Shown in pieces: positions 17,173 through 50,115 of a stretch of 64,000 nt of DNA; position 1 is the first letter of the stretch; each line of letters opens with the position of its first letter. Source of the DNA: Fidelibacterota bacterium (lineage in GTDB: Bacteria; Fidelibacterota; UBA8477; JABMPR01). The position numbers and the translations under genes were made by a program. The stretch is taken from NCBI GenBank assembly GCA_021736185.1, contig JAIPGJ010000002.1, positions 143 through 64,142 on the forward strand, in the 5' to 3' direction. The notes under the pieces were generated by a model, which did not search any database, had not been told where the DNA came from, and worked only from the letters and a program-made list of their open reading frames with translations.

Positions 17173-17225
17173 GAGATTGCTTCGCGGAGCCTGTACTGAG
17201 CTTGCCGAAGTGCTCGCAATGACAG
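17173..17225 (+). repeat. intergenic repeat unit GAGATTGC...CTCGCAATGACAG (family A, single long copy)
   Basis: Shares both termini with the copies at 17990, 36073 and 40953. Confidence 0.6.
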
Positions 17226-17937: not shown

Positions 17938-18027
17938 CCTTCGCGAGCGGAGCGCGGCGATCTCCAACCATCCTTTATCCAGGAAGTTGGAGATTGCCAC
18001 GGTCGTTACCCGACCTCGCAATGACAG
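17938..18027. repeat. inverted pair of family A repeat units (BIME-like)
   Basis: 17938-17964 ..TTCGCGAGCGGAGCGCGGCGATCTC faces 17990-18027 GAGATTGCCACGGTCGTTACCCGACCTCGCAATGACAG. Confidence 0.6.
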
Positions 18028-36010: not shown

Positions 36011-36109
36011 GTCTTTGCGAGTAACTGAAGGGGAGTGACGCGATCTATAAAACGTTGCGGTGCGTATAGCCGGAGATTGCCGCGGTCGCTACACTCCCTC
36101 GCAATGACA
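36011..36109. repeat. inverted pair of family A repeat units (BIME-like)
   Basis: 36011-36047 GTCTTTGCGAG...GACGCGATCT faces 36073-36109 GAGATTGCCGCGGTCGCTACACTCCCTCGCAATGACA. Confidence 0.6.
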
Positions 36110-37921: not shown

Positions 37922-39346
37922 TTACTTCTCAAACCACAATGTTTTAACTTTAGCAAAGGCCCGTTTGCCTCCAAGGGCTCTGTGGGAAACCAGCACAAAA
38001 ACCAAATAGGCGAGGGCCACTCCAATAGCTGCCCAGAAATAGAGCGGATTGGCCTTGGTGATACTATAGGCGGGAAGATTGATCGACAAGATAAAGGGAA
38101 TCACCAGGAAGAAAGTAAAGGCCGCTGAATACATGTAATCCGTTGCCACCGGCGTTTCAAAATCAGGATCAACCACCCGCAAAAGTGCCAGACCGGTGGG
38201 CATGGTTCCGGTACAGGCACCATAAATGATCAACGCGCGGTGAAACTGATAGTCTTCAAAAATTCGTGAACTGATCCAGATGACGGTAATAAATGTGATA
38301 AAGCCACCGACAATAGAAATAACCAGGATGGGCAGCCAGTATTGGACAACCACGGTGAGCGATATGGCACCCACGGCGGCGGCTACCATGATATCAACGC
38401 TGTTGCCGGCAATGCGGGTCAGACTACCATTGTCCAGAGTATGTTCGACTTTTAGCTTAATCATGATGGTTTTCACAATCAGGGCCACCATGGCAGCAAA
38501 AACAAAACTGATACCCCAGAGGTTTACTGCCAGATCATTCCCCATATTTCCAGCAAAGGAAAGCAGGCCACCGAGACCTTTGAGCATTAAGAAGCTAAAG
38601 AGATAGACCATGAGGACCACTGCCATATTGTAACTGGCAGAATCAATGGCTTCTGATTCTGTGGTCAGCCTGGATCCGACCTGTAGTTTCTCATCACGTC
38701 CCATGACACCAGAACGAAACTGCCGATCCCTGATTTTTTTTACCTGTTCTTTACCGAGCCAGCCTCTTCTGATACCCATATTGATCAGAACGACACCACC
38801 AAAACACGCCCACATATAACCAACCGCGGCAAAAGTAAGACCCACATCCGGGGCGCCCTTAAACCCCATGCCAACCCAGCCTTCCCCGATGGCATAAGCC
38901 TGGCCTGGTCCAAGTGCAAAACCCAGGGGGAGGAAGAAACCAAAGGCGGGGTACAGCTCTTTCATGACAGTACTCATAAAGAAAAATGTCAGGAGCAGAC
39001 CAACCAGGGACTGAAGCGAGTATTGAGAAATAATTGAAACCGATGTGCCGAAAACGCTTTTATCTCCTTTACGCTTGGTATAGGCTGGTTTTCGAAGACT
39101 CATGGCAATAAAGGAAATACTCAACAGGTGGTAAACGATGGCACCCAAACCAACCTCCGTCATGCCCACCAATGGAGCCAGGAAGTTGTAGAAGGGCAGG
39201 AGGATGAAGCCGGCCGTCAGAGCATTGGGAATCAAATACTTTTGAAAAAAACTTATCCGTGCCCGAAGAAAGGTTGCCAGGAGCAACGCCATTGAAATGA
39301 CGCCGAGATCCAGAAACATATTCCATGGAAAATTCATATGGTCCAT
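37922..39346 (-). CDS. gltS: sodium/glutamate symporter family (GltS-like) transporter
   Basis: Polytopic membrane protein. The N-terminus LLLATFLRARISFFQKYLIPNALTAGFIL resembles GltS (ESS family). Confidence 0.6.
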   Translation of the reverse strand: MDHMNFPWNMFLDLGVISMALLLATFLRARISFFQKYLIPNALTAGFILLPFYNFLAPLVGMTEVGLGAIVYHLLSISFIAMSLRKPAYTKRKGDKSVFGTSVSIISQYSLQSLVGLLLTFFFMSTVMKELYPAFGFFLPLGFALGPGQAYAIGEGWVGMGFKGAPDVGLTFAAVGYMWACFGGVVLINMGIRRGWLGKEQVKKIRDRQFRSGVMGRDEKLQVGSRLTTESEAIDSASYNMAVVLMVYLFSFLMLKGLGGLLSFAGNMGNDLAVNLWGISFVFAAMVALIVKTIMIKLKVEHTLDNGSLTRIAGNSVDIMVAAAVGAISLTVVVQYWLPILVISIVGGFITFITVIWISSRIFEDYQFHRALIIYGACTGTMPTGLALLRVVDPDFETPVATDYMYSAAFTFFLVIPFILSINLPAYSITKANPLYFWAAIGVALAYLVFVLVSHRALGGKRAFAKVKTLWFEK

Positions 39347-39487
39347 CCTGTTTTTAAAACTGCTGTTGTCTAATTGGTGTCGTAAACTGGCTCCAGTTTA
39401 CTTGCATGAAACATTATTTACAACGCTAAAACTCCTCTGAGAGGAGGCTCTGTTGTGTCTCAGTTCTCCAGAGTTTAGAGGTAATAA

Positions 39488-39516
39488 CCTTACGAAGGTT
39501 TAAAACCTTCTTAAGG
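39488..39516. repeat. degenerate REP hairpin (family B; same as the RAYT-flanking REPs)
   Basis: CCTTACGAAGG-TTTAAAA-CCTTCTTAAGG, with one stem mismatch relative to the 47.3/47.9-kb copies. Confidence 0.65.
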
Positions 39517-39975
39517 TTAAGCATCGCGTAAGGTTACATGCCCTTTTGTCTTAAAAGTATAGGATGCCATGGCCAGATCAAGCCGCTCGATCCACTCAAG
39601 CTTTTTCCAGAAATCGAAGCCACTCCGGTTGTCTTTATTGATGAAAATGTGGCATTTTTCAATACCGGCAGCCTCAATTTTCCCGAGGCAGAGATAAACA
39701 AGCTCCTTACCGATCCCTTGTTTCCGGTATTCTGGTAATACCACTAAGTGATGAATAGAACCAAAGCGACCATCATGACCCCCCAATATCCCACCCACTA
39801 TCTGGTCGTGGGATTCAGCAACAAAACTTAAGCCTGGATTTCGTTCCAGGAAGGCGACAAAACCCGCTGGTGTATCTGCTTTTCTGAGTGTCAGACCTGG
39901 GGTCTGTTTCCATAGCATATAGAGAAATGAGTGATCCCCAGGGAGCATTTCACGATATTTGACACCCGCCGACAT
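39517..39975 (-). CDS. GNAT family N-acetyltransferase
   Basis: Acetyl-CoA motif VLPEYRKQGIGKELV. The start abuts the lipA stop. Confidence 0.8.
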   Translation of the reverse strand: MSAGVKYREMLPGDHSFLYMLWKQTPGLTLRKADTPAGFVAFLERNPGLSFVAESHDQIVGGILGGHDGRFGSIHHLVVLPEYRKQGIGKELVYLCLGKIEAAGIEKCHIFINKDNRSGFDFWKKLEWIERLDLAMASYTFKTKGHVTLRDA

Positions 39976-40899
39976 TTATCCGAGAATGGCCTCTCGCTTT
40001 TTAACGGGATGTAGAATTTCATTTTGCAATACTTGTTCATCGGCATGATAGGAGGAGCGCACCAGGGGTCCCGACTCAACATAACTGAATCCAATTTTCA
40101 TCCCATACGCCTTATACTCGGCAAATTCATCGGGATGAACAAAGCGATGCACAGGCTCATGCTCTTTCGTGGGTTGAAGGTATTGTCCCAGAGAAAAAAT
40201 CTGGGTCCCGGTTTTCCGCACATCATCCATGAGAGCCAAGACTTCCGCCTTGGTTTCGCCAATCCCTACCATGATGGAGGTCTTGGTCTGCAAGCCTGCC
40301 AGCACGGATTGGCTGAGCACATCCAAGGATCGCTGATACTGAGCCTGGGGTCGAATTCTGCGATGGAGTCGCTCCACCGTTTCCATATTGTGACTCATGA
40401 TCTCAGGTTGAGCATCCAGTACCGTTTTAATGCTGGCTGGATTCCCTTGAAAATCCGGTGTGAGGACTTCAATGGAACAACCTGGAACCTGAGCATGAAT
40501 TTGCCTGATGGTTTCTGCCCAAATAGCAGCCCCGCCATCATCAAGCTCATCTCTATCCACCGAAGTGATGACACAGTGATGCAGACCCATCTGTTTAACG
40601 GCCTCAGCGGTCCTTCTGGGCTCGTCCAGGTCCACAGCCGAAGGTCGGCCTGTCTTGACGGCGCAGAAGGCACAGGAGCGCGTACAGGTGTCACCCAGAA
40701 TCATGATGGTGGCGGCCCGACGCTCCCAGCATTCACTGATATTGGGACACATGGCTTCCTGACACACCGTATGAACTTTATGACTAGAGACAATGCTTTT
40801 CAGGTCTTGGAAATTTGGACCGCTGCGTAATTTTGTTTTTAGCCAGGCTGGCTTTGTAGGTTTAGACATATATAATGCTTTCTCTTTAGCTGTCGTCAT
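39976..40899 (-). CDS. lipA: lipoyl synthase
   Basis: Auxiliary cluster motif CQEAMCPNISECW and radical-SAM motif CTRSCAFC. The start may be ATG 40869. Confidence 0.95.
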   Translation of the reverse strand: MTTAKEKALYMSKPTKPAWLKTKLRSGPNFQDLKSIVSSHKVHTVCQEAMCPNISECWERRAATIMILGDTCTRSCAFCAVKTGRPSAVDLDEPRRTAEAVKQMGLHHCVITSVDRDELDDGGAAIWAETIRQIHAQVPGCSIEVLTPDFQGNPASIKTVLDAQPEIMSHNMETVERLHRRIRPQAQYQRSLDVLSQSVLAGLQTKTSIMVGIGETKAEVLALMDDVRKTGTQIFSLGQYLQPTKEHEPVHRFVHPDEFAEYKAYGMKIGFSYVESGPLVRSSYHADEQVLQNEILHPVKKREAILG

Positions 40900-40986
40900 C
40901 GCGAGTGAGATACGAACGCGGCGATCTCTCTGTTTTCCAGTATCAATATAATGAGATTGCTTCGTCGTTTCACTTCTCGCAATGAC
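40895..40986. repeat. inverted pair of family A repeat units (BIME-like)
   Basis: 40895-40928 GTCATCGCGAGTGAGATACGAACGCGGCGATCTC faces 40953-40986 GAGATTGCTTCGTCGTTTCACTTCTCGCAATGAC. Confidence 0.7.
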
Positions 40987-41016
40987 CCAGGAGGATCAAA
41001 CCTTAAGCAGAACATG

Positions 41017-42300
41017 TTATTGCAGATTTCCAGCGAGTTCCTTTGCGGGATCCACGCTTTCAAGGTTCTTCATGATTTCTTCAATAAACTGCCCGCCCAT
41101 GGCGCCATCAATGAGACGATGGTCAAAGCCCAGGGTAAAGACACACATTTGACGAATGGCTATTTCATCGCCAGTTTTCGTTTCAATCACCACCGGTTTC
41201 TTCTTAATGGCCCCGACTCCCAGGATCGCCATATTGGGCTGGTTGATGATGGGATAACCTGCCAGGTTGCTAAAAACACCAAAATTGGTAATGGAGAAGG
41301 TCGCACCTTCCAGGTCATCCAGGGTCAACTTCTTTTCCCGGGCCCGGCTCACAATATCTGAGATTGAGTCTGAGATTTCCAGTAAGGACTTTGCTTCGGC
41401 ATATCGTACTGGCGGAACCACCAGACCGTCCCCGACAGCCACGGCAATACCAATGTTCAGATGCTTATGACGGATAATTTTTGAGCCATCCAGGGAGCTG
41501 TTGATCAGGGGGAATTTCAGCAACGCATCACGAACCGCTTTGGTTATGAAATGAGTGACGGTGATGGAATGCCCGTGCTGTTTTTTAAACGCTGCATTGT
41601 TTTCGGAAATGAAGGCCATGATGGCCGTCATATCCGCTTCACTGACGGAATAGACATGGGCAGAGGTGTCAACGCTTTTTCGCATGTGTTTGGCGATACT
41701 TTTACGCATGCTGTCCATTTCAATGATTTCAACATCTTCAGCTGCGACTCGTTGGGCCAGACCGGTTTCTTCCAGCCCACGCAGGGAATGAGTCTTTTTA
41801 TTGCTGGAATCGCGGGTTTCCAGATAAAAGAGCACATCTTTTTTGGAGACACGACCACGGAATCCACTGCCGGGAATGCCTTGTAGTTCAGCCGGGCTGA
41901 TACCTTCCTGGGCCGCGATACTTCTTACCAGGGGAGAATACACCCGGTCATCACCAAATGTTGTGGGTTGTGGAGGCGCTTCGCGAAGCGCCGTCTTCAC
42001 CCCAAGGGGTTCAGCTGACCTGACAGGGGGATTGTCCTTTGGAATATGGCTCTGAATGTCATCAGAGGTTTCCACCCGGGCAATGATGGTATCTATATCA
42101 TAGGTCTGGTTGACTTTGCCGATAATCTCAATCAGGATGCCGGATACGGGACTGGGAATTTCTGCATCCACTTTATCCGTGGCAATCTCCAGGAGGGTTT
42201 CATCCTTATCGATGGTATCCCCAACGGCCTTTTTCCACTCCAGAACCGTGCCTTCAGTTAAGGATTCACCCATTTTGGGCATGACGATATCGAATATCAT
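41017..42300 (-). CDS. 2-oxoacid dehydrogenase E2 (dihydrolipoamide acyltransferase)
   Basis: Lipoyl domain EIATDKVDAEIPSP, E3-binding domain SPLVRSIAAQEGI and catalytic motif DHRLIDG. Confidence 0.9.
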   Translation of the reverse strand: MIFDIVMPKMGESLTEGTVLEWKKAVGDTIDKDETLLEIATDKVDAEIPSPVSGILIEIIGKVNQTYDIDTIIARVETSDDIQSHIPKDNPPVRSAEPLGVKTALREAPPQPTTFGDDRVYSPLVRSIAAQEGISPAELQGIPGSGFRGRVSKKDVLFYLETRDSSNKKTHSLRGLEETGLAQRVAAEDVEIIEMDSMRKSIAKHMRKSVDTSAHVYSVSEADMTAIMAFISENNAAFKKQHGHSITVTHFITKAVRDALLKFPLINSSLDGSKIIRHKHLNIGIAVAVGDGLVVPPVRYAEAKSLLEISDSISDIVSRAREKKLTLDDLEGATFSITNFGVFSNLAGYPIINQPNMAILGVGAIKKKPVVIETKTGDEIAIRQMCVFTLGFDHRLIDGAMGGQFIEEIMKNLESVDPAKELAGNLQ

Positions 42301-42337
42301 AGGGTCACCTTTTTAAACCATAATTATAGCAGAGGTC

Positions 42338-42359
42338 GGAGCGTTTCGCGAAACGCTCC
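42338..42359. repeat. 22-nt perfect palindrome GGAGCGTTTCGCGAAACGCTCC between the E1 and E2 genes
   Basis: Read directly from the sequence. No adjacent T-run on the coding (minus) strand. Confidence 0.9.
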
Positions 42360-42369
42360 AGCAATATTT

Positions 42370-44385
42370 TCAATACTCTAACAGTCTTTCTGAAGCTAGG
42401 CGGATGTCTTCGGTCTGTGGCAGGATTTCATCTTCCAGGTCCCAGTTGAAGGGGATGGGAGCATCTTTAGCTGCTACCCTCAATACGGGTCCATCCAGAT
42501 ACTCAAAATATTCTTCAGCGATAATCGCTGCTATTTCAGCACCAGGACCCGCCGTCAAGCTATCTTCATAAACGACCAGGGCCTTACTGGTCTTCTGTAA
42601 AGACTTTCCAATGGTCATTTTATCCAGAGGACTGAGTGTCCTCAGATCGATCACTTCAATGGAAACGCCTTGAGATTTTTCAAGCTGCCTGGCGGCCTCC
42701 AGGGCCTTATAAACCATTAAACCGTAGGTGATAATTGTGAGATCTCGTCCTTCGCGCACCACAGCAGCCTGACCAAAGGGAAGCAGATAATCTTCATCTG
42801 GTTCAGGACGCTTGGCAAAGCCCTGACGATACATGCCCTTGTGCTCCAGAAAGAGGACGGGGTCGTCACAGCGACAGGCATATTTAAGCAATCCTTTGGC
42901 ATCCGCCGCATTGGACGGATATACAATATGAATACCAGGTAAATGCATAAAGAAGCCCTCAATACTCTGGCTGTGGCATAAGCCGCCATGAATATAACCT
43001 CCCACGGGGGTTCGAATAACAAGGGGACATGAAAAGTGGTTGTTGCTGCGATATCGGATGGTGGCCACTTCATTACGGATTTGCATCATGGCCGTCCAGA
43101 TATAATCGCCGAACTGAATTTCAACCACCGGCTTCAAACCGGCAATGGCCGCACCAACGGCCGTACCAACGATGGAGGCTTCGGCCAAGGGTGAATTAAA
43201 GACCCGGTCTTTGCCAAACTCTGTAGAAAGTCCTTTGGTGGCAGTAAACACACCGCCTTTTCCATCGGCAACATCCTGACCATAGATAATCATTTTGTCG
43301 TTGCGGGTCATTTCCTCATGAAGGGCATGGTTGATGGCGTCCACAATAACGATTTCAGAACCAAAAGCAGGCGACGCCGAAGCTTTTACGGAAAGCGTCG
43401 TTTCGTTGACAACATGGGTGATTGCTTCAGCTCGCTCTGGGAAGGGAGCCGACATGGCTTTTTCAGCGGCTTCATCGACAGCTTGCAGAACCTCGTTCCG
43501 GATCTGCTGAAACTCATCTGGACTAATTATGCCTGAGTTCTCACATTGGGTTCTGAACTTTTCAATGGGATCCCGTTTTTGCTCTTCGGTGAGTTCATCG
43601 GCATTTCTGTATTTGCGGTGATCATCAGAAGAGGAATGGGGGAGCAGGCGTACGACGTTTGAAACCACAATAGCTGGACCGTTTCCGCTGCGAATACTGG
43701 CCATGGCCTTCTTAAATGTTTCATGGGATTCGAAAAAATCGGTCCCATCCGTTTCAAAGCGAGAGAGGTTTCCATAACCACCAACCATATCGTAGACCGA
43801 CCCCTCGGCTGTTTGGGACGACTTGGGAACCGAGATGGCGAAACCATTGTCTTCAATATGGAAAAGAACCGGTAATTTTTCACGACTGGCCCAGTTTAAG
43901 GCTTCATGAAACTCTCCCTGGCTGGTGGTTCCTTCTCCAGAAGAAACATAGACCAGGGCTTTATTTCCGGCGTGTCGAGCCGCCATGGCTGTTCCGACGG
44001 CCTGAAGAAACTGGGTGCCCGTGGGACTGGATTGGGTCACAATATTCAGATCTTTTTTGCCATAGTGCTGGGGGAGTTGGCGACCCCCTGACCCGGGGTC
44101 ATCCCTTTTTGCCAGAAACCCCAGAAAGAGGTCTTCTGTAGTCATTCCCAAGCCCATCACCATGGTTTGATCCCGGTAGTAGGGGTATGACCAATCCAGC
44201 TTGGGATTCATTTGCATGGCGCAGGCTAGCTGTGCCCCTTCATGTCCGGCAGCACCAATATGGAAAAATGATTTCCCCTGTCTCAGCAGGGTGAGCATTT
44301 TTTCATCGGTACGGCGTGAGGTTGCCATGGTTTTGAAAATGCCCACTAATTCGTTTTTGGTGAATCCTTTAAGGCTGGCTGACAC
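42370..44385 (-). CDS. 2-oxoacid dehydrogenase E1 component, fused alpha-beta subunits
   Basis: The N-terminal half has the TPP-binding E1-alpha pattern (SSGEGTTSQGEFHEALN). The C-terminal half is E1-beta (transketolase-like Pyr and C domains). Confidence 0.85.
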   Translation of the reverse strand: MSASLKGFTKNELVGIFKTMATSRRTDEKMLTLLRQGKSFFHIGAAGHEGAQLACAMQMNPKLDWSYPYYRDQTMVMGLGMTTEDLFLGFLAKRDDPGSGGRQLPQHYGKKDLNIVTQSSPTGTQFLQAVGTAMAARHAGNKALVYVSSGEGTTSQGEFHEALNWASREKLPVLFHIEDNGFAISVPKSSQTAEGSVYDMVGGYGNLSRFETDGTDFFESHETFKKAMASIRSGNGPAIVVSNVVRLLPHSSSDDHRKYRNADELTEEQKRDPIEKFRTQCENSGIISPDEFQQIRNEVLQAVDEAAEKAMSAPFPERAEAITHVVNETTLSVKASASPAFGSEIVIVDAINHALHEEMTRNDKMIIYGQDVADGKGGVFTATKGLSTEFGKDRVFNSPLAEASIVGTAVGAAIAGLKPVVEIQFGDYIWTAMMQIRNEVATIRYRSNNHFSCPLVIRTPVGGYIHGGLCHSQSIEGFFMHLPGIHIVYPSNAADAKGLLKYACRCDDPVLFLEHKGMYRQGFAKRPEPDEDYLLPFGQAAVVREGRDLTIITYGLMVYKALEAARQLEKSQGVSIEVIDLRTLSPLDKMTIGKSLQKTSKALVVYEDSLTAGPGAEIAAIIAEEYFEYLDGPVLRVAAKDAPIPFNWDLEDEILPQTEDIRLASERLLEY

Positions 44386-44400
44386 GCAAATTCTCCATAC

Positions 44401-45033
44401 TTAGTTTAACACCCTGTCATAGGCAAAGACGGTTTGGAAGGCCAGAATCAGAGGTTGTGCAACCGTTTCAACTGTGATCTCGCTTCCCAGCAACTCCTGC
44501 ATACTCACGACCCCCTTCCCTGTTATTCCGCAGGGAATCATGCCATTGAAATATGACATATCTGGTCTCACATTCAAGGCAAATCCATGCATGGTCACCC
44601 ACCGGGAAAGCCGTACGCCCATGGCACAAACTTTTTGACTACCCACCCAGACACCCGTCATTCCAGGGATGCGCTCTCCCGTGATGTCAAAATGCTGGAG
44701 GGTTTTTATAATAACCTCTTCCAGATTGCGCATAAACCAGCTCACGCTTTTCTTGTGATCTTCCAGATTGATAATGGGATATCCCACCAGTTGTCCGGGA
44801 CCGTGCCAGGTGATATCTCCACCGCGGTCGCTCTGAATAACCTGGGCATCGCGGGCATTGATGAGGTTCGATTTGTCCGCGTTTTTACCAAAGGTATATA
44901 CCGGGGGATGTTCTAGAAGAATCAGGGTGTCGGCAATCTCGCCAGCCAGTCGACGGGCATGGACCTGGCGTTGATATTCCCAGGCTTCTTCGTAGGGAAC
45001 CAAGCCTTTTTTTATGACGTGTAGATCAGACAC
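44401..45033 (-). CDS. lipB: lipoyl(octanoyl) transferase
   Basis: RGGDITWHGPGQLVGYP and the catalytic-region pattern KVCAMGVR..WVTMHGFALN. Confidence 0.9.
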   Translation of the reverse strand: MSDLHVIKKGLVPYEEAWEYQRQVHARRLAGEIADTLILLEHPPVYTFGKNADKSNLINARDAQVIQSDRGGDITWHGPGQLVGYPIINLEDHKKSVSWFMRNLEEVIIKTLQHFDITGERIPGMTGVWVGSQKVCAMGVRLSRWVTMHGFALNVRPDMSYFNGMIPCGITGKGVVSMQELLGSEITVETVAQPLILAFQTVFAYDRVLN

Positions 45034-45072
45034 AGGAGGGGTTTCTCAATTCTTTTATATTGCTAGATATGT

Positions 45073-45100
45073 GTCGTCCCTCGACTCCGCTCGGGATGAC
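45073..45100. repeat. intergenic hairpin repeat (family C): GTCGTCCCTCGACTCCGCTCGGGATGAC
   Basis: Related in terminus (..GGGATGAC) and layout to family A. Paired with 45158-45183. Confidence 0.5.
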
Positions 45101-45157
45101 GAACTCAGGTTGATGCCAATTCCAAGAGTGGCTTGTGATACTCCAAAAAACGGGACT

Positions 45158-45183
45158 GTCACCTCGAGCGAAGTCGAGAAATC
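45158..45183. repeat. intergenic hairpin repeat (family C, opposite orientation): GTCACCTCGAGCGAAGTCGAGAAATC
   Basis: Contains the internal palindrome CTCGA-GCGAAG-TCGAG. It faces the 45073 copy. Confidence 0.5.
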
Positions 45184-45212
45184 TTGACCTCCACATTTGA
45201 TTCTTGCCTGAA

Positions 45213-45680
45213 TCAAAATAACACCGCTAATTTTTCACAAATAGCTTCCAGCAACTCGGTGTCCTGATCTGTAAATGGGGAGATTGCATGGGAGTCTATA
45301 TCCAGCTCAGCCACAAATTTACCTGCTTTCATGATGGGAAAAACCACCTCTGACTGGACATTTGAGCTACAGGATAAATAATTATTCTCCAGGGAGACAT
45401 CCTGGATGATGCGACTCATTTCGAAGACTGCAACCTGGCCGCAAACGCCTTTACCAAAGGCAATCTTAACATGATCTGTGGCGGCACCCACATAGGGACC
45501 AAGAATTAGATTCTTGCCCGACTCATCAACGATATAAAATCCCACCCAGTTATAGTGGTCAATACTGCTGGAAAGGAGTTCAGCAATTTTCTGCAATACT
45601 TCATCCCTGGTTTTCAGGCTGGATAGGACTGTGTCCACAGATTTGAGAAGCGTTGGTATGTTGGGAAATGCCAGGTTCAT
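45213..45680 (-). CDS. msrC: GAF-domain free methionine-(R)-sulfoxide reductase-like protein (YebR/MsrC family)
   Basis: NWVGFYIVDE...LILGPYVG......I.FGKGVCGQ...SCSSNVQSEVVFPI...ELDIDS...FTDQD is collinear with E. coli YebR as I recall it. Confidence 0.7.
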   Translation of the reverse strand: MNLAFPNIPTLLKSVDTVLSSLKTRDEVLQKIAELLSSSIDHYNWVGFYIVDESGKNLILGPYVGAATDHVKIAFGKGVCGQVAVFEMSRIIQDVSLENNYLSCSSNVQSEVVFPIMKAGKFVAELDIDSHAISPFTDQDTELLEAICEKLAVLF

Positions 45681-45889
45681 GAAAAGCCTCTTTTTTCAGC
45701 ACTCATTCTAATTGATTTGATGTCTCATACCAAGGAGCTTCACCAACCAACTGCCTTGTGCTATATTTTATAATATCAACTATCCCAATATTATGGGAAG
45801 CGACCGTAGCGCCTTTGTCATAGAGAAGCTGTTGCTGTTCATCAATATTTTGAATCTTTCCCGTTTTTTTGGGATAGGTCTTGTCGCCT

Positions 45890-47296
45890 TTAAAGGTGAA
45901 TGCCGCGATCTAATGCCAGGGCGGAAGCTTCCATGATCATTTCTGACAATGTGGGGTGGGCATGAATGGTTTCGAGCACGGCTTCATGGGTTGCCTCAAG
46001 GGAACGGGCCATTCCGATTTCAGCAATCAATTCTGTTGCCTCCGCTCCAATAATGTGTGCGCCCAAAAGCTCCCCATATTTGGCATCATAGATGAGTTTG
46101 GTAAAACCATCAGTCTCTCCTGATGCCATCGCTTTTCCGGATACACGATAGGGGAACTTGCCAACCTTCACTTCGTATCCTGCTGCCCTCGCCGCTTTCT
46201 CGGTGAGTCCAATAGAGGCCACCTGAGGCGTGCAATAGGTGCAACCCGGCACGTTGTCATACTTCATGGGTTTCACATTTAATCCCGCGATGTGCTCAAC
46301 CGCAGTAATGCCTTCGTGGGAAGCTACGTGGGCCAGCCAGGGAGGACCAGCGACGTCACCAATGGCGTAAATGCCCGCCACAGAAGTCTGCATGTAGGCG
46401 TTGGTCTTAATCCAGCCTTTTTCCAGCTGGACACCAGCGGCCTCCAGTCCCAGATCCTCGATGTTACCCTGAACCCCGATGGCAATTAAAACTTTGTCTG
46501 CATCCAGCCCCAGAAGCTCACCTGTTTTGGTTTTTACTTTGACCAGAGCCCGATTTTCAGAGATAGAAATGCTTTCGACTTTAGCCTCGGTATGGGTCTT
46601 GATTTTTTTGCGTTTGAACATTTTTTGCAGCTCGATGGAGACCTCTTCGTCTTCAATGGGCAGCAGCTGTGGCAACATTTCAACCAGAGTCACTTCCGTG
46701 CCCATGGCAGCGTAAAAATCGGCGAACTCAACCCCAATAGCTCCGGCACCTACCACAACCAGCTTTTCAGGGATAGACTCAAGATTCATGGCTTCCTTGG
46801 ATGAGATGATGATTTTGCCATCAAATGCCGCGTCGGGCATGGGTCGCGGACGAGCGCCAGTAGCCAGAATGATATTGTCCGCGCTGATTTCCTGATCATC
46901 ATCGATGCTTATCCGGTTCCCGCCAATAAGTTTTGCACTACCGTTGATAACGTCTATCTCATTTTTTTTCATGAGAAAATCCACGCCCTTTGAAAGGGCT
47001 TCGGCGACCTGTCTTGAACGCTGTATCACTGCCGGAAAATCCACATCTACATCATCCACCAGTACGCCAAACTTTTTGGCTTTTTGGGCTGACCGCAATA
47101 CTTCGGCACTTTTTAAGAGGGCCTTGGTTGGAATACAACCCCAGTTCAGACAGATTCCACCCAACGCAGCGCGTTCAATAACAAGCGTCTTTTTACCCAG
47201 CTGAGCGGCGCGAATAGCAGCCACATATCCACCGGGTCCGCCGCCGATGATTGCGATGTCATAATGGGTTGTACTCACTGTAATTCCTTCTCTCAT
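45890..47296 (-). CDS. lpdA: dihydrolipoyl dehydrogenase (E3)
   Basis: FAD motif IIGGGPGGY, redox disulfide GGICLNWGCIPTK and C-terminal HAHPTLSE. Confidence 0.95.
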   Translation of the reverse strand: MREGITVSTTHYDIAIIGGGPGGYVAAIRAAQLGKKTLVIERAALGGICLNWGCIPTKALLKSAEVLRSAQKAKKFGVLVDDVDVDFPAVIQRSRQVAEALSKGVDFLMKKNEIDVINGSAKLIGGNRISIDDDQEISADNIILATGARPRPMPDAAFDGKIIISSKEAMNLESIPEKLVVVGAGAIGVEFADFYAAMGTEVTLVEMLPQLLPIEDEEVSIELQKMFKRKKIKTHTEAKVESISISENRALVKVKTKTGELLGLDADKVLIAIGVQGNIEDLGLEAAGVQLEKGWIKTNAYMQTSVAGIYAIGDVAGPPWLAHVASHEGITAVEHIAGLNVKPMKYDNVPGCTYCTPQVASIGLTEKAARAAGYEVKVGKFPYRVSGKAMASGETDGFTKLIYDAKYGELLGAHIIGAEATELIAEIGMARSLEATHEAVLETIHAHPTLSEMIMEASALALDRGIHL

Positions 47297-47308
47297 TATT
47301 ATTAACCC

Positions 47309-47351
47309 CTTGAGGCTTAGCCTTACGAAGGCTTAAAACCTTCGTAAGGCT
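47309..47351. repeat. REP hairpin (family B), left flank of RAYT
   Basis: CTTGAGGCTT-AGCCTTACGAAGG-CTTAAAA-CCTTCGTAAGGCT with a 13-bp perfect stem. Preceded by ATTAAC. Confidence 0.85.
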
Positions 47352-47360
47352 ATTTTTCCA

Positions 47361-47927
47361 TTACGAGCCTTCTAATTTGAATTTATCCAGTATTTTCTCG
47401 TGCTGGATTTCAGAGTAATATTTTAAAAATTCTTTATACTCAGTTTTTGATATAAACGAATCAACGATGTGCTTGCTAATGAGAGTAGAGTCTCTTTTCC
47501 CAAGCCACTCCTGACAATTTGAGAATTCCCATTCGGCAGCCTCTGAAACCAGTCCTGCAGCGACAGGATTGAAATGGATATATGCTATTAGTTCCTGAAA
47601 ATATTTGTCACCCTCAATCAAAATGTGTTTAGGTCTTCCCTCAAAAAGCGTTCCTTTGCGACCCTCCTGTTTGTTAATCGCTTGAGAATACCCATTAAAA
47701 ATATACTGAAGCCATTTTGAAACTGGTATCTCAGAATTTTGCTGAACAAGCAAGTGATAGTGGTTTGGCATAAGACAATATGCGATGACATCAATGCCGA
47801 ATCGTTCTTTGGTGGTCGCTATTTTTTCTGTAAGATAACGATAGTTTTCTTCGGAATAAAAAATTTGCTTGTGGTTCCATCCTCGGTTGAAAACGTGATA
47901 TATCCCTGATTCTTGATACACGAACAT
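47361..47927 (-). CDS. rayT: REP-associated tyrosine transposase (RAYT; IS200-like Y1/HUH transposase)
   Basis: HUH motif CLMPNHYHLLVQQ and catalytic-Tyr helix AYIHFNPVAAGLV. 188 aa, visibly AT-rich relative to its neighbours, and flanked by REPs. Confidence 0.85.
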   Translation of the reverse strand: MFVYQESGIYHVFNRGWNHKQIFYSEENYRYLTEKIATTKERFGIDVIAYCLMPNHYHLLVQQNSEIPVSKWLQYIFNGYSQAINKQEGRKGTLFEGRPKHILIEGDKYFQELIAYIHFNPVAAGLVSEAAEWEFSNCQEWLGKRDSTLISKHIVDSFISKTEYKEFLKYYSEIQHEKILDKFKLEGS

Positions 47928-47932
47928 TAACT

Positions 47933-47975
47933 CTTGAGGCTTAGCCTTACGAAGGTTTAAAACCTTCGTAAGGCT
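47933..47975. repeat. REP hairpin (family B), right flank of RAYT
   Basis: Identical to 47309-47351 except for one loop base (T for C), in the same orientation and also preceded by ATTAAC. It encodes the last 8 codons and the stop of the murU-like gene. Confidence 0.85.
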
Positions 47976-48690
47976 CTTTACTTAAATGCTTCCGTAATTC
48001 TTCCAGTTTTTCTACGGCGCCAATATCAATCCAGTAAGCATGATCCATTGGAAAGGCCTTGATTTTCTCCCCTGCCTCGGCGGCTTTTAAATAGACTGGA
48101 ATGGTGGAAAAAACGTTCCCAAATTCCGTCATATAATCAAAAAGCTTTGGTGAAACGACCTGAACCCCATTAAAAGCCAGTTTTTCGTAACTTTTGGTGT
48201 TCCAGGATACTTTTTCGCCAGTCGTTCGGTTTTCCCACCCGCATAAATTTTTATCCTCGTCAAATCTTAGATAACGAGATGTTTCCCTTTTGGCAACAGC
48301 CAGGGTAGCCAGGCTCTGTGATGTTCGATGAGCTGCCACCAGGGATCCGAGATCGAGATCGGTATATATATCACTATTACATACGAGAAAGGCCTCATCT
48401 CCGACAAAGTATTGTGAAGCCTGTAGTAATCCACCACCCTGACCCAACAGGTCTGGTTCTTCTGAGATGTGAATGGTCAAGCCAAAATCTCTGGACCGAA
48501 TAAACTCAATCACCTGTTCTGAAAAATGATGCACATTAATCACCAGGGTATCCACACCAGCAGCTTTGAGCTGGAGAATGTTGTGTTCCAGCAAGGTCTT
48601 GTTACCCGCCCTGACCAGACATTTGGGATGTCTGTCTGTGAGGGGGGCCAGACGGCTTCCCCTGCCTGCGGCAAAAAGCATGGCCTTCAA
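47947..48690 (-). CDS. murU: N-acetylmuramate alpha-1-phosphate uridylyltransferase-like nucleotidyltransferase
   Basis: MKAMLFAAGRGSRLAPLTDRHPKCLV...VINVHH...GQGGGL...NSDIYTD is collinear with Pseudomonas MurU as recalled. Confidence 0.75.
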   Translation of the reverse strand: MKAMLFAAGRGSRLAPLTDRHPKCLVRAGNKTLLEHNILQLKAAGVDTLVINVHHFSEQVIEFIRSRDFGLTIHISEEPDLLGQGGGLLQASQYFVGDEAFLVCNSDIYTDLDLGSLVAAHRTSQSLATLAVAKRETSRYLRFDEDKNLCGWENRTTGEKVSWNTKSYEKLAFNGVQVVSPKLFDYMTEFGNVFSTIPVYLKAAEAGEKIKAFPMDHAYWIDIGAVEKLEELRKHLSKEPYEGFKPS

Positions 48691-48696
48691 GAGAGG

Positions 48697-50115
48697 TTAT
48701 GCTTCCAGTTCTCGGTGGTGAACGACCACATCAATATCGTGGGTCTCTTTCAGGTGGGCTGCCAGCTTGTTGGCTGAATGGACAGATCTATGCTGTCCGC
48801 CAGTGCATCCAAATGAAATCATCAGATCGGTAAAATTCTGTTCCTCGTAGCTGGTAACTGCCGCATCCACCATGGTGAACAGCCGTTTTAACCAGCGGGT
48901 CATGTCGGGTTTACTGGCAAACCAGTCTATCACTTCCTGATCATTGCCCGTCAACTTTTTATAGGCAATATCACGGCCGGGATTGGGTAGAAAACGGCAA
49001 TCAAAAACGAAGCCGCCGCCATGGCCACGATCATCAATGGGCACCCCGTTTTTATATGAAAAACTGGATATGCGTACCTTCAGGCGCAATTTTGCCTTGC
49101 CAAATTCTCTCAGGGCTGAAGACTGAATCAGTTGATGAAAAACATCCATCATGACGGGAATCTTAATGGATAGATCCACCTTGCGAATGAGGTATTCAAG
49201 ATTTCTTACCGCATAGGGAATACTTTGCAGAAAGTGGGTTTTGCGCTCATAAAAACCGCGATAGCCATAGGCACCCATGGCCTGCATGATACGAATATAC
49301 ACGAAAGCATAGTAATGCCTGGTGAAGGCTTCACGATCAATGGGAAGCAGTTGGGATGCAGCACTCAAATAGTGGTCTAGCAGGTGTTCTCTCACCTCAA
49401 ATGGCAGGTCGGCCTTCGCATCAAAAAGCAAGGATGCTATATCATATTGCAGGGCCCCCTTTCGCCCCCCCTGATAATCAATAAACCAGGGCTTATTGTC
49501 ATTGAGCATAATGTTTCTGGATTGAAAATCACGATAGAGAAAGTGGTTTCCATCAGCTTGAAGCAAAAAATCCGTGAAGGTTCGGAAATCCTGCTCCAGC
49601 TGCTGCTCATTAAAACGGATGTGGGCCAGTTTTAGAAAATAATATTTGAAATAATTCAAATCCCACATCATGGATTGACGGTCAAAACTGTGGTGGGGAT
49701 AAGATTTGCTGTAATCCAAGCCCTGGCCGCCTTTGATTTGAAACTGAGGCAGACGCTCAACCACCTGTTCATAGGTCTTTAAGAGCTCTTCAGGGAATCC
49801 TTTGCGTCCTTCCCGTACTTTGCGGAGATAGTCAAACAGGGTGATATCACCAAGATCCTGCTGGAGATAGATATGATGGTCCAGATCTTCGGCATAAATT
49901 TCCGGCACATCAAGACCTTTTGAACGGAAGTGTCTGGAGAAGGATATAAAGGCATCATTTTCCAGTCGATCCATGTTTTTTGCACCAATCACCGAACGCT
50001 GGTCGTTGCTCAGACGAAAATATTCTCGGTTGGAACCATGGGCCGGCAATGGACTCAGGTCAATGACATCTTCCTTGAAATGTTTTTCAAACAAGGTTTT
50101 TAACTTATCAGGCAT
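48697..50115 (-). CDS. amgK: AmgK-like sugar anomeric kinase (APH fold) fused to a RapZ C-terminal-like domain
   Basis: The N-terminal roughly 330 aa are APH/AmgK-like (HGSNREYFRL; LYRDFQSRNIMLNDNKPWFIDYQGGRKGALQYDIASLL). The C-terminal roughly 135 aa (FSYKNGVPID...FVFDCRFLPNPGRD...LTGNDQEV...ISFGCTGGQHRSV) match the RapZ C-domain motifs [16 protein letters not shown] and GCTGGKHRSV. Confidence 0.75.
   Translation of the reverse strand: MPDKLKTLFEKHFKEDVIDLSPLPAHGSNREYFRLSNDQRSVIGAKNMDRLENDAFISFSRHFRSKGLDVPEIYAEDLDHHIYLQQDLGDITLFDYLRKVREGRKGFPEELLKTYEQVVERLPQFQIKGGQGLDYSKSYPHHSFDRQSMMWDLNYFKYYFLKLAHIRFNEQQLEQDFRTFTDFLLQADGNHFLYRDFQSRNIMLNDNKPWFIDYQGGRKGALQYDIASLLFDAKADLPFEVREHLLDHYLSAASQLLPIDREAFTRHYYAFVYIRIMQAMGAYGYRGFYERKTHFLQSIPYAVRNLEYLIRKVDLSIKIPVMMDVFHQLIQSSALREFGKAKLRLKVRISSFSYKNGVPIDDRGHGGGFVFDCRFLPNPGRDIAYKKLTGNDQEVIDWFASKPDMTRWLKRLFTMVDAAVTSYEEQNFTDLMISFGCTGGQHRSVHSANKLAAHLKETHDIDVVVHHRELEA

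What the first reader, a model, noticed from the sequence alone, without database searches (positions are those of the whole stretch)
47301..47975. RAYT transposase bracketed by two near-identical REP hairpins, with a third degenerate REP about 8 kb away
Seen in sequence:
- The 188-aa ORF carries the HUH motif (PNHYHLL) and the Y1 catalytic helix (YIHFNPVAAGLV).
- It is flanked at 47309-47351 and 47933-47975 by the 43-nt element CTTGAGGCTT-AGCCTTACGAAGG-(C/T)TTAAAA-CCTTCGTAAGGCT. This has a 13-bp perfect stem and one loop difference between the copies.
- Both copies are in the same orientation and both are preceded by ATTAAC. On the minus strand, each runs straight into an ATG (RAYT at 47927; lpdA at 47296).
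- A copy with one stem mismatch lies at 39488-39516.
- The RAYT gene is visibly more AT-rich than lpdA and murU.

Established knowledge: RAYTs are domesticated IS200-like transposases that associate with, and are thought to disseminate, REP/BIME hairpins.

Inference: RAYT plus one REP (about 625 bp) was inserted or duplicated between murU and lpdA. The direct-repeat arrangement differs from the inverted flanks typical in enterobacteria.
Basis: partly seen in the sequence, partly recalled or inferred. Interest (0 to 1): 0.6.

Follow-up and report, generated by a model that had tools for sequence, protein, structure and literature searches.

The report
REP-associated transposase gene with its hairpins
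This is a real, long-resident, single-copy "domesticated" tyrosine transposase gene (RAYT) sitting between murU and lpdA of a marine Marinimicrobia genome, bracketed by the same 33-nt DNA hairpin that is scattered about a dozen times through the genome; it is a known kind of system in a new lineage, with an unusual tag-less hairpin.

Summary
The ORF at 47361-47927 (-) is a class-2 Y1 HUH enzyme. It scores 78.9 bits on NCBIfam REP_Tyr_transpos against 17.9 on the IS200 model. Its best solved-structure match, by sequence and by fold, is E. coli TnpA-REP (4ER8).

Exact hairpins flank it at 47319-47351 and 47943-47975. The draft genome (2.74 Mb, 89% complete) holds 13 copies of the family, with compensatory stem changes, and 11 of them lie within 27 nt after a stop codon. 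It is the only repeated long-hairpin family in this genome, and the RAYT gene is single-copy.

The reading "recent insertion" is only partly right:
- Two congeners carry the orthologous RAYT at the same murU-lpdA site.
- RAYT dN equals murU dN, and dN/dS is about 0.07.
- 17 congeners have no RAYT and one hairpin there. One is a precise empty site (G018) and one a scar (G012).
- The 50-nt direct repeat is specific to this genome. The orthologue in G003 has inverted flanks.

Across about 80 homologues from many phyla, a hairpin with a 15-bp stem and 3-nt loop flanks the gene far above background. These hairpins lack the GT[AG]G foot.

Verdict: an ordinary RAYT-REP system in a new lineage, with an atypical REP type.

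The parts
47361..47927 (-). RAYT / TnpA-REP gene (188 aa; the start could also be the GTG two codons in, giving 186 aa)
   Evidence: Pfam Y1_Tnp E = 1e-10. NCBIfam REP_Tyr_transpos 78.9 bits (cut-off 80) vs IS200 17.9. Best PDB sequence hit is 4ER8. AF2 model pLDDT 92.5, best fold match 4ER8 at E = 1.3e-8 and TM 0.73. Single copy in the genome.
47754..47762 (-). HUH motif codons (H56-Y57-H58 in LMPNHYHLL)
   Evidence: Invariant in 34 homologues. Aligns with the HMH of E. coli TnpA-REP.
47580..47582 (-). Catalytic tyrosine codon (Y116 in YIHFNP, the class-2 Y---NP signature)
   Evidence: Invariant Y116, H118, N120 and P121. The class-2 signature is as defined in PMC6006769.
47943..47975 (.). 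murU-proximal REP hairpin (15-bp stem, 3-nt loop). It also encodes the last 9 residues and the stop codon of murU.
   Evidence: The murU ORF ends inside it. The same holds in G011.
47319..47351 (.). lpdA-proximal REP hairpin. It starts 7 nt after the RAYT stop codon and ends 40 nt before the likely lpdA GTG start.
47926..47975 (+). Direct repeat copy 2: ATTAAC-T-CTTGAGGCTT plus REP. On the minus strand this reads REP followed by the leader AAGCCTCAAGAGTTAAT, running into the RAYT ATG.
   Evidence: The leader is homologous to the RAYT leader of G011.
47301..47351 (+). Direct repeat copy 1: ATTAAC-CC-CTTGAGGCTT plus REP. This is a duplicate of the RAYT-side REP and leader, placed upstream of lpdA.
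   Evidence: No such repeat exists in G011 or G003, whose lpdA-side REP is a different, mismatched, inverted copy.
39485..39519 (.). Solo REP of the dispersed AACC...GGTT subtype, with one stem mismatch. The core ends 1 nt before the stop codon of a minus-strand gene.
47947..48690 (-). murU-like nucleotidyltransferase, the upstream neighbour
   Evidence: Pfam NTP_transferase. Conserved neighbour in 21 of 23 congeners.
45890..47278 (-). lpdA (dihydrolipoyl dehydrogenase), the downstream neighbour, with its likely GTG start
   Evidence: Pfam Pyr_redox_2 and Pyr_redox_dim. Start inferred from the alignment with relatives.

Best explanation
The locus is a REPtron-like unit. It consists of a single-copy, vertically inherited REP-associated tyrosine transposase (RAYT / TnpA-REP, class 2 of the Y1 HUH family) and its cognate REP hairpins. 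It lies in a Marinisomatota (Marinimicrobia / SAR406) MAG.

Shown:
- The enzyme has the HUH and Y---NP catalytic motifs and the TnpA-REP fold.
- The same 33-35-nt perfect palindrome (TAACCTTNCGAAGGTT-NNN-AACCTTCGNAAGGTTA) flanks it and recurs about 11 more times in the genome, mostly just after stop codons.
- The gene has sat between murU and lpdA since before three species diverged, and it is under purifying selection.
- Relatives without it keep one hairpin at the site.
- Homologues in many phyla are flanked by hairpins of the same geometry (15-bp stem, 3-nt loop). These hairpins are dispersed 1 to 132 times in their genomes.

Inferred:
- As with E. coli TnpA-REP and IS608 TnpA, the protein binds the folded hairpin on single-stranded DNA, for example at the replication fork. 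It cuts and rejoins next to the hairpin foot through a 5'-phosphotyrosine link at Y116.
- This activity seeds, homogenises or removes REP copies.
- The same chemistry, or plain recombination between the flanking REPs, can delete or restore the segment 'RAYT plus one REP'. That would give the empty (G018) and scarred (G012) sites, and the freshly homogenised direct repeat in this genome.
- The hairpins that persist right behind stop codons probably also serve the host as mRNA 3'-end structures.
For: Enzyme identity:
-.
- 4ER8 is the top match by sequence (E = 0.003) and by fold (E = 1.3e-8; 164 alignment columns against the 165-residue chain). IS200, IS608 and ISDra2 are three orders of magnitude weaker.

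Repeat family:
- 13 copies, with central pairs A-T, G-C and C-G always compensated.
- It is the only repeated family among the 82 perfect hairpins of at least 11 bp in the genome.
- Chance expectation is about 1e-5 per genome.

Association within the genus:
- The three RAYT+ genomes hold 10, 9 and 7 perfect copies.
- RAYT- genomes hold 9, 4, 3, 3, 3, 2, 2, 1, 1 and eleven zeros.
- Mann-Whitney p = 0.003, not corrected for phylogeny.

Vertical history:
- The orthologues in G011 and G003 lie at the same junction.
- RAYT dN is about equal to murU dN, and dN/dS is about 0.07.
- G018, the sister of G003 (SH-aLRT 98), has the murU-side REP of G003 joined straight to the lpdA leader.
- G012 retains half a REP.

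Turnover:
- Four REP sites are orthologous between species, with compensatory double changes.
- Others are present or absent between species.

Family-wide pattern:
- A hairpin lies within 250 nt upstream in 42 of 75 loci, downstream in 40 of 79, and on both sides in 30 of 74. Background is 0.022 per window.
- The loop is 3 nt in 73 of 89 hairpins, and the modal stem is 15 bp.
- The hairpins are dispersed in those genomes.
Against: - No activity is shown.
- The NCBIfam equivalog score is just under its cut-off (78.9 vs 80).
- Copy number is low (13), and the sister genome G018 keeps 9 copies without a RAYT. Maintenance over that time span therefore does not need the enzyme.
- The placement 1-27 nt behind stop codons could reflect host selection for 3'-end hairpins rather than transposase targeting.
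- The REP has no GT[AG]G foot or any unpaired conserved tag. The E. coli residues that read GTAG are replaced: W94, Q95, E100, H101 and R104 become F, E, H, I and E. Recognition and cleavage sites therefore cannot be transferred from the E. coli model.
- The genome is an 89%-complete MAG in 161 contigs, so all counts are lower bounds.
- The tree rests on two genes only.
Confidence: 0.85

Rival explanations
1. A recently inserted or horizontally acquired mobile cassette. In this reading REP-RAYT-REP, or RAYT plus one REP, entered the murU-lpdA spacer recently and independently in the three carriers. It was targeted to a pre-existing hairpin, as IS200-like or REP-targeting elements are.
For: - The two flanking repeats are near-identical over 50-51 nt in this genome, although synonymous sites between species are saturated.
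- RAYT GC is 37-38% against about 46% for murU in all three carriers.
- The carriers do not form one clade on the two-gene tree.
- Empty sites keep exactly one hairpin.
- The 78 homologues from outside this genus in the scan lie in other gene contexts.
- Other notes of this scan describe REP-RAYT-REP cassettes that come and go. These are leads only.
Against: - RAYT divergence tracks murU divergence pair by pair.
- The RAYT leader and the lpdA-side mismatched REP are orthologous between G011 and G003.
- G012 carries a REP scar inside the clade of carriers.
- There is one copy per genome and no second copy anywhere.
Confidence: 0.12
2. The hairpins are host transcription terminators or mRNA-stability elements that merely resemble each other, and the Y1 gene next to them is unrelated to their spread.
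For: - 11 of 13 copies lie within 27 nt after a stop codon.
- RAYT-less relatives also have a hairpin after murU.
- On the + strand both flanking copies pass a simple terminator scan.
Against: - The flanking genes are on the - strand, where no T-run follows the hairpins.
- The genome uses canonical stem-plus-T-run terminators elsewhere, for example after rplS.
- Twenty fixed stem bases are shared at unlinked loci (chance expectation about 1e-5).
- Across phyla the hairpin sequence changes, yet it still flanks the RAYT homologue on both sides and is dispersed in that genome.
Confidence: 0.03
3. An autonomous IS200-type insertion sequence, meaning a tnpA gene between left-end and right-end subterminal hairpins in the same orientation.
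For: The unit is about 670 bp with like-oriented hairpins at both ends, superficially like IS200. The protein has the Y1_Tnp domain.
Against: - The Y motif is Y---NP, not Y---Q.
- The IS200 model scores 17.9 bits against a cut-off of 55.
- The gene is single-copy.
- Solo hairpins outnumber the gene by about 11 to 1.
- Empty sites retain a hairpin.
- The orthologue in G003 has inverted flanks.
Confidence: 0.01

Closest known systems
E. coli TnpA-REP / RayT (YafM) and its REPtron (PDB 4ER8; TnpA-Y1 subclass 2.2 of Quentin et al. 2018, PMC6006769; Nunvar 2010, PMC2817692)
   Same: - Single-copy Y1 HUH enzyme with the Y---NP motif and the W-x-F-S tail motif.
- Best sequence and fold match of the query.
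- The gene is flanked by hairpins that are also dispersed in intergenic DNA, mostly at the 3' ends of genes.
- Vertical inheritance.
   Different: - About 16% identity.
- The REP here is a perfect, symmetric hairpin (15-bp stem, 3-nt loop) with no GT[AG]G foot and no bulge.
- The GTAG-contact residues are not conserved.
- There are 13 copies rather than hundreds.
- The flanks are direct in this genome.
- No BIME or REPIN doublet organisation, apart from one pair 67 nt apart on contig C56.
TnpA-Y1 subclass 2.1 (2.1.2) = Bertels RAYT Group 1 / 'TIRYT' (PMC6006769, PMC5581495, PMC3733652)
   Same: - The family motifs NHYH, GTLF[EQ]GR and YIH[LFY]NP fit the second motif set listed for subclass 2.1: NH[YF]H, FQ, Y[IV]HLNP.
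- Patchy distribution across many phyla.
- Bertels reports only about 12 genome-wide occurrences of flanking 16-mers for Group 1, which is similar to the count here.
   Different: - The published survey found no REP-like structures next to subclass 2.1 genes, and Di Nocera found long TIRs with GGGGWSAS.
- Here, clear hairpins flank the gene in about half of 80 homologues.
- This protein is short (188 aa) and lacks the DnaA_C/HTH tail.
- The assignment is by motif only, not by a tree with reference sequences.
IS200/IS605 TnpA (IS608, ISDra2; subclass 1.1)
   Same: - Same HUH/Y1 fold.
- Those enzymes recognise a folded DNA hairpin on single-stranded DNA, which is the mechanism assumed here.
- Excision of the segment between two like-oriented hairpins would give the observed empty site.
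   Different: - Y---NP, not Y---Q.
- Single copy, with no tnpB.
- The IS200 HMM scores far below its cut-off.
- Solo hairpins are dispersed.
- Long residence at one locus.
REPIN-RAYT populations of Pseudomonas and Enterobacteria (Bertels & Rainey 2011, PMC3116915; bioRxiv 10.1101/2021.07.10.451892)
   Same: - One RAYT per repeat family.
- Vertical persistence.
- The repeat population shrinks or is missing in lineages without the RAYT.
- Orthologous repeat sites are shared between species.
   Different: - The units are single symmetric hairpins, not inverted doublets.
- Populations are about ten copies, not hundreds.

Membership tests
RAYT / TnpA-REP (class 2 TnpA-Y1) | HUH motif plus a catalytic Tyr in a Y---NP motif | tested here: met
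   NHYH (H56, H58) and Y116-IHF-NP, invariant in 34 homologues. The signature is as given in PMC6006769.
RAYT / TnpA-REP (class 2 TnpA-Y1) | Passes the curated family model (NCBIfam NF047646, equivalog) | tested here: inconclusive
   78.9 bits against a cut-off of 80. The match covers 134 residues of the query (3-136), aligned to positions 5-146 of the 146-position model.
RAYT / TnpA-REP (class 2 TnpA-Y1) | TnpA-REP fold, including the C-terminal extension | tested here: met
   AF2 model pLDDT 92.5. 4ER8_A is the top hit at E = 1.3e-8, TMt 0.73, with 164 alignment columns against the 165-residue chain.
RAYT / TnpA-REP (class 2 TnpA-Y1) | Single copy, with no near-identical duplicates in the genome | tested here: met
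   One match in G000. The other Y1 gene (contig C144) belongs to a different subclass. The genome is 89% complete.
RAYT / TnpA-REP (class 2 TnpA-Y1) | The gene is flanked by palindromic repeats that also occur dispersed in the same genome | tested here: met
   There are two flanking copies and 11 others. The same holds for homologues in other phyla.
RAYT / TnpA-REP (class 2 TnpA-Y1) | Vertical inheritance, behaving like a housekeeping gene | tested here: met
   Same locus in three species, dN equal to that of murU, dN/dS about 0.07.
RAYT / TnpA-REP (class 2 TnpA-Y1) | Sequence-specific binding and cleavage of the REP as single-stranded DNA | not testable with these tools
   This needs biochemistry.
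Canonical REPtron (subclasses 2.2, 2.4, 2.5, 2.7, 2.8) | REP carries a 5' GT[AG]G foot | tested here: not met
   Pooled flanks of 31 REPs show conservation only of T-A-A, which pairs with the other flank. There is no unpaired tag.
Canonical REPtron (subclasses 2.2, 2.4, 2.5, 2.7, 2.8) | The GTAG-reading residues W94, Q95, E100, H101 and R104 are conserved | tested here: not met
   The aligned residues are F, E, H, I and E. The residue list comes from PMC6006769.
Canonical REPtron (subclasses 2.2, 2.4, 2.5, 2.7, 2.8) | Flanking REPs are in inverted orientation | tested here: not met
   They are direct in this window. They are inverted in the orthologue of G003 and in several homologues with asymmetric stems or loops.
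IS200/IS605 insertion sequence (subclass 1.1) | Y---Q motif, and passes the IS200 model | tested here: not met
   The motif is YIHFNP. NF033573 scores 17.9 bits against a cut-off of 55.
IS200/IS605 insertion sequence (subclass 1.1) | Multiple near-identical copies, often with tnpB | tested here: not met
   Single copy. The neighbours are murU and lpdA.
Intrinsic terminator | G+C-rich stem followed by a T-run on the transcribed strand | tested here: not met
   On the - strand the hairpins are followed by AAGCCTCAAG. Only the antisense + strand shows T-rich tails.

The most novel reading that the evidence does not exclude
This protein belongs to a widespread but uncharacterised RAYT clade. The clade occurs in Marinisomatota, Calditrichota, KSB1, Cloacimonadota, Bacteroidota/Ignavibacteria, Chloroflexota, Planctomycetota and Latescibacterota. 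By motif it falls in subclass 2.1, which the published survey reported as REP-less.

Its cognate REP would be a new type: a symmetric, tag-less hairpin with a 15-bp stem and a 3-nt loop. Both DNA strands fold identically, so the enzyme has no strand or orientation cue.

'RAYT plus one REP' would then behave as a cassette that is excised and re-integrated REP-to-REP by the enzyme itself. That would leave precise empty sites (G018), scars (G012) and freshly homogenised direct repeats (this window).
Probability: 0.3. Interest if true: 0.55.

Novelty: new member of a known kind. Interest (0 to 1): 0.35.

Why it matters
RAYT-REP systems have been studied almost only in Proteobacteria and Cyanobacteria.

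This locus gives a clean, small example in an uncultured marine phylum:
- one enzyme and about a dozen targets;
- an occupied site, an empty site and a scarred site among congeners.

It also shows that a large RAYT clade spread over many other phyla uses a hairpin without the GTAG tag on which the current recognition model rests. That makes the clade a useful test case for how Y1 enzymes read a symmetric hairpin. It also bears on whether low-copy REP populations are maintained by the enzyme or by host selection for 3'-end structures.

For annotation there are two practical points:
- The hairpin overwrites the 3' end of murU.
- The hairpin breaks assemblies (the G021 contig ends there).

Tried and rejected
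I could therefore not look for reads showing excision junctions, new REP insertions or transcripts.
- Rfam at permissive thresholds found nothing in 38000-50000.
- I tried to place the protein in the Quentin/Bertels subclasses through that paper's supplement. The supplement holds REP tables only, none of the six genera I searched for (Ignavibacterium, Anaerolinea, Caldilinea, Caldithrix, Melioribacter, Rhodothermus), and no REP like this one. The subclass call therefore rests on motifs.
- I looked for flanking hairpins around the 31-35%-identical paralogues in congeners (L006-L013). I found none except a 24-bp one in L006. Those paralogues are about 200 aa and lack a DnaA_C tail, so they did not help to anchor subclass 2.1.
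- I tested whether the second Y1 gene (contig C144) is flanked by the other repeat family seen in the window (GAGATTGC...CTCGCAATGAC). It is not.
- I considered an in-frame fusion of RAYT with murU or lpdA, as in other notes of this scan. This is rejected because the frames differ (offsets of 22 nt and 67 nt, neither a multiple of three).
- Orientation scoring of flanking hairpins across 30 homologues gave no consistent direct or inverted signal from the outer flanks. Only copies with asymmetric stems or loops are informative, and these are mostly inverted.
- Extraction of the gene upstream of murU for the tree was inconsistent, so the tree uses murU plus the lpdA N-terminus only.
Full report
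**Observation.**
The region reads as described. ORF 47361-47927 on the minus strand encodes 188 aa with LMPNHYHLL and AYIHFNPVAAGLV. The pattern AGCCTTACGAAGG-N7-CCTTCGTAAGGCT occurs exactly twice in the window, at 47319-47351 and 47943-47975, and in none of 100 shuffles.

The repeat extends 5' through CTTGAGGCTT to ATTAAC, with a 2-nt spacer in one copy and a 1-nt spacer in the other. This gives direct repeats of 51 and 50 nt. As single-stranded DNA each copy folds into a 15-bp stem at -16.7 kcal/mol, z = -6.6 to -7.9. The copy with one mismatch at 39488-39516 is real. RAYT GC is 37.4%, against 45.7% for murU and 50.5% for lpdA.

**The protein.**
- Pfam gives Y1_Tnp at 1e-10.
- NCBIfam gives REP_Tyr_transpos 78.9 bits, just under its cut-off of 80, against 17.9 bits for the IS200/IS605 model with a cut-off of 55.
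- The best solved relative by sequence is E. coli TnpA-REP, 4ER8. The HUH and the Tyr helix are aligned.
- An AlphaFold model built on 34 homologues has mean pLDDT 92.5. Its best PDB fold match is again 4ER8 (E = 1.3e-8, TM 0.73, 164 alignment columns against the 165-residue chain). The IS200, IS608 and ISDra2 transposases are about 1000-fold weaker.
- The Y---NP motif is the class-2 (TnpA-REP) signature of Quentin et al. 2018, whereas IS200 has Y---Q.
- The gene is single-copy in the 2.74-Mb, 161-contig, 89%-complete assembly.
- A second Y1 gene on contig C144 has the Y---Q--HH signature of the non-IS subclass 1.2.
- The neighbours are murU and lpdA. No tnpB is present.

**The hairpin family.**
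Genome-wide there are 13 copies at up to 2 mismatches per arm, of which 10 have perfect stems. The consensus is TAACCTTNCGAAGGTT-NNN-AACCTTCGNAAGGTTA. In the perfect-stem copies the central N pair is A-T, G-C or C-G and is always compensated.

The two copies that flank the RAYT are a private subtype (AGCC...GGCT). Of the 82 perfect hairpins of at least 11 bp in the genome, this is the only family with more than two members. Pooled flanks of 31 copies from four genomes show no conserved unpaired tag. Conservation stops at T-A-A, which pairs with the other flank.

Eleven of the 13 copies lie within 27 nt after the stop codon of an ORF of at least 100 aa, several of them between convergent genes. 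They are not canonical terminators. On the coding (minus) strand no T-run follows the two flanking copies, and the genome has ordinary stem-plus-T-run terminators elsewhere, for example after rplS. No Rfam family matches.

**Relatives.**
Record titles place the genus in Candidatus Neomarinimicrobiota / Marinimicrobia.

Presence of the RAYT:
- Of 22 congeners, only G011 (75% identity) and G003 (65%) carry the orthologue.
- In both, it lies between murU and lpdA with a hairpin of the same family on each side.
- In 17 other congeners murU and lpdA are adjacent with a single hairpin between them.

Divergence:
- RAYT dN equals murU dN for the same genome pairs: 0.140 vs 0.147, 0.229 vs 0.269, and 0.245 vs 0.248.
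- Synonymous sites are saturated, and dN/dS is about 0.07.

Tree (murU plus the lpdA N-terminus):
- G018 is sister to G003 with SH-aLRT 98.
- G000 and G011 lie in a clade with RAYT-less G016, G012 and G008.

State of the junction in non-carriers:
- The single junction hairpin of G018 is identical over 28 nt to the murU-side REP of G003, including its stem mismatch and loop. It is joined to the lpdA leader. This is a precise absence of 'RAYT plus one REP'.
- G012 keeps only one arm of the REP fused to the lpdA leader, which is a scar.
- The G021 contig ends at murU, so its state is unknown.

Old residence with several losses is therefore the simplest history.

**Orientation.**
In G003 the stem mismatch is asymmetric, and it shows the two flanks are inverted, as in classical REPtrons. 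The lpdA-side REP of G011 carries the same mismatch as that of G003. In this window the lpdA-side copy is instead a near-perfect duplicate of the murU-side REP together with the RAYT leader (AAGCCTCAAGRGGTTAAT). The direct repeat is thus a recent, lineage-specific homogenisation or re-duplication, not a trait of the system.

**Association and turnover.**
- Perfect copies per genome are 10, 9 and 7 in the three RAYT+ genomes. In RAYT- genomes they are 9 (G018), 4, 3, 3, 3, 2, 2, 1, 1 and eleven zeros. Mann-Whitney p = 0.003, uncorrected for phylogeny. The non-zero RAYT- genomes cluster around the carriers on the tree.
- Of the REP sites fetched from G011 and G018, four are orthologous to G000 sites. 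These are on contigs C49, C32, C56 and C46, and they differ by compensatory double changes of the central pair.
- Others are present in one species and absent in G000. One example is contig C114, where the two genes are nearly abutting in G000.
- This is the pattern of a slowly turning-over, structure-constrained repeat population.

**The wider family.**
A scan of one genome per species found more than 576 relatives. The best 80 (38-74% identity) come from Cloacimonadota, Calditrichota, KSB1, Fidelibacterota/Marinisomatota, Ignavibacteria/Bacteroidota, Chloroflexota, Planctomycetota, Latescibacterota and others. Only the two congeners have murU and lpdA as neighbours.

A hairpin of at least 12 bp lies within 250 nt upstream in 42 of 75 loci, downstream in 40 of 79, and on both sides in 30 of 74. 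Background in the same loci is 0.022 per window. Loops are 3 nt in 73 of 89 hairpins, and the modal stem is 15 bp. The stem sequence differs between lineages, but the two flanks of one gene match each other.

These hairpins are dispersed in their genomes: 1-5 copies for the CCTTGCGAAGG type and 2-132 for the CCTCCCGNAGG type, with zero control matches. The family motifs NHYH, GTLF[EQ]GR and YIH[LFY]NP fit the second motif set of subclass 2.1. For that subclass the published survey found no REPs, and Bertels found only about 12 occurrences of flanking 16-mers. This subclass assignment is by motif only. Databases already label members 'transposase' or 'REP element-mobilizing transposase RayT'.

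**Mechanism.**
Shown:
- catalytic motifs and fold;
- cognate flanking and dispersed hairpins;
- purifying selection;
- presence and absence of the unit 'RAYT plus one REP'.

Inferred, from IS608 and E. coli TnpA-REP biochemistry (established knowledge; PMC3479197, PMC8266576):
- The enzyme binds the folded hairpin on single-stranded DNA and cuts and rejoins next to its foot through Y116.
- The hairpin is symmetric and untagged, and the GTAG-contact residues are replaced. The cleavage site and any strand preference therefore cannot be predicted.
- Enzyme-mediated REP-to-REP excision and plain recombination between the REP arms would both yield the G018 junction. Its crossover maps within the AAGG of the right arms.

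**Verdict.**
This is a genuine RAYT-REP unit, ordinary in kind. It is new for this phylum and has an atypical REP type. The 'recent insertion' and 'direct repeats as a system trait' readings are not.

Noticed in passing
window 47947-47975 (also L004 1450-1482): The last 9 residues and the TAA stop of murU (…KEPYEGFKPS*) are encoded by the REP. The same holds in G011 (…KEPYEGLKPS*). Congeners without this REP end murU about 9-10 residues earlier, for example G016 …HLS*.
   Followed up: partly
window 47276-47296: The homologous lpdA start is probably the in-frame GTG at 47278 (MSTTHYDIAIIGGG), preceded by GAGAAGGAA. It matches the starts in congeners. The ATG at 47296 would add 6 residues that are not seen elsewhere.
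   Followed up: partly
genus genomes; G000 contig C129:10814-10833: A second dispersed hairpin family, GCG[A/G]GGATT-NN-AATCC[T/C]CGC, occurs 1-13 times per genome in 22 of 23 congeners (control 0). It is the hairpin that occupies the murU-lpdA junction in most RAYT-less species, and G000 has only one copy. The junction thus hosts different REP-like families in different species. No enzyme partner was identified.
   Followed up: partly
G000 contig C144:39596-39940 (L002 1375-1857) and L002 about 1850-2200: A second Y1 gene (160 aa) has the Y---Q--HH signature of the non-IS subclass 1.2. It is followed by at least three tandem copies of a repeat of roughly 110 nt. It is not flanked by the hairpin family or by the GAGATTGC repeats.
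   Followed up: partly
L040, L041, L046, L072, L073, L086, L098: RAYT homologues of only 41-51% identity, in Calditrichota, KSB1, Anaerolineae, Chloroflexia, Ignavibacteriales and Bacteroidota, are flanked by the same REP core as in this genus (CCTTGCGAAGGTT-NNN-AACCTTCGCAAGG). This points either to strong conservation of the recognition sequence or to horizontal spread of the enzyme with its hairpin.
   Followed up: partly
G000 contig C56:22431-22526: Two REPs lie 67 nt apart between convergent genes, and the second is degenerate. This is the only doublet in the genome. The orthologous site in G011 has a single REP.
   Followed up: no
window 48697-50115: The gene upstream of murU is a fusion of an APH/AmgK-like kinase domain with a RapZ C-terminal domain (Pfam PF01636 plus PF22740).
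   Followed up: no
L036 / G011 record title: The closest congener (CAZDVD010000028.1) is deposited as 'uncultured Lentisphaeria bacterium', while its relatives are labelled Neomarinimicrobiota. This is probably a taxonomic mislabel of the record.
   Followed up: no
window 17173-17225, 17990-18027, 36073-36109, 40953-40986: This is another low-copy repeat, GAGATTGC...CTCGCAATGAC. The 11-mer occurs 6 times in the genome against about 1.3 expected. The 8-mer GAGATTGC alone (119 occurrences) is barely above chance.
   Followed up: partly
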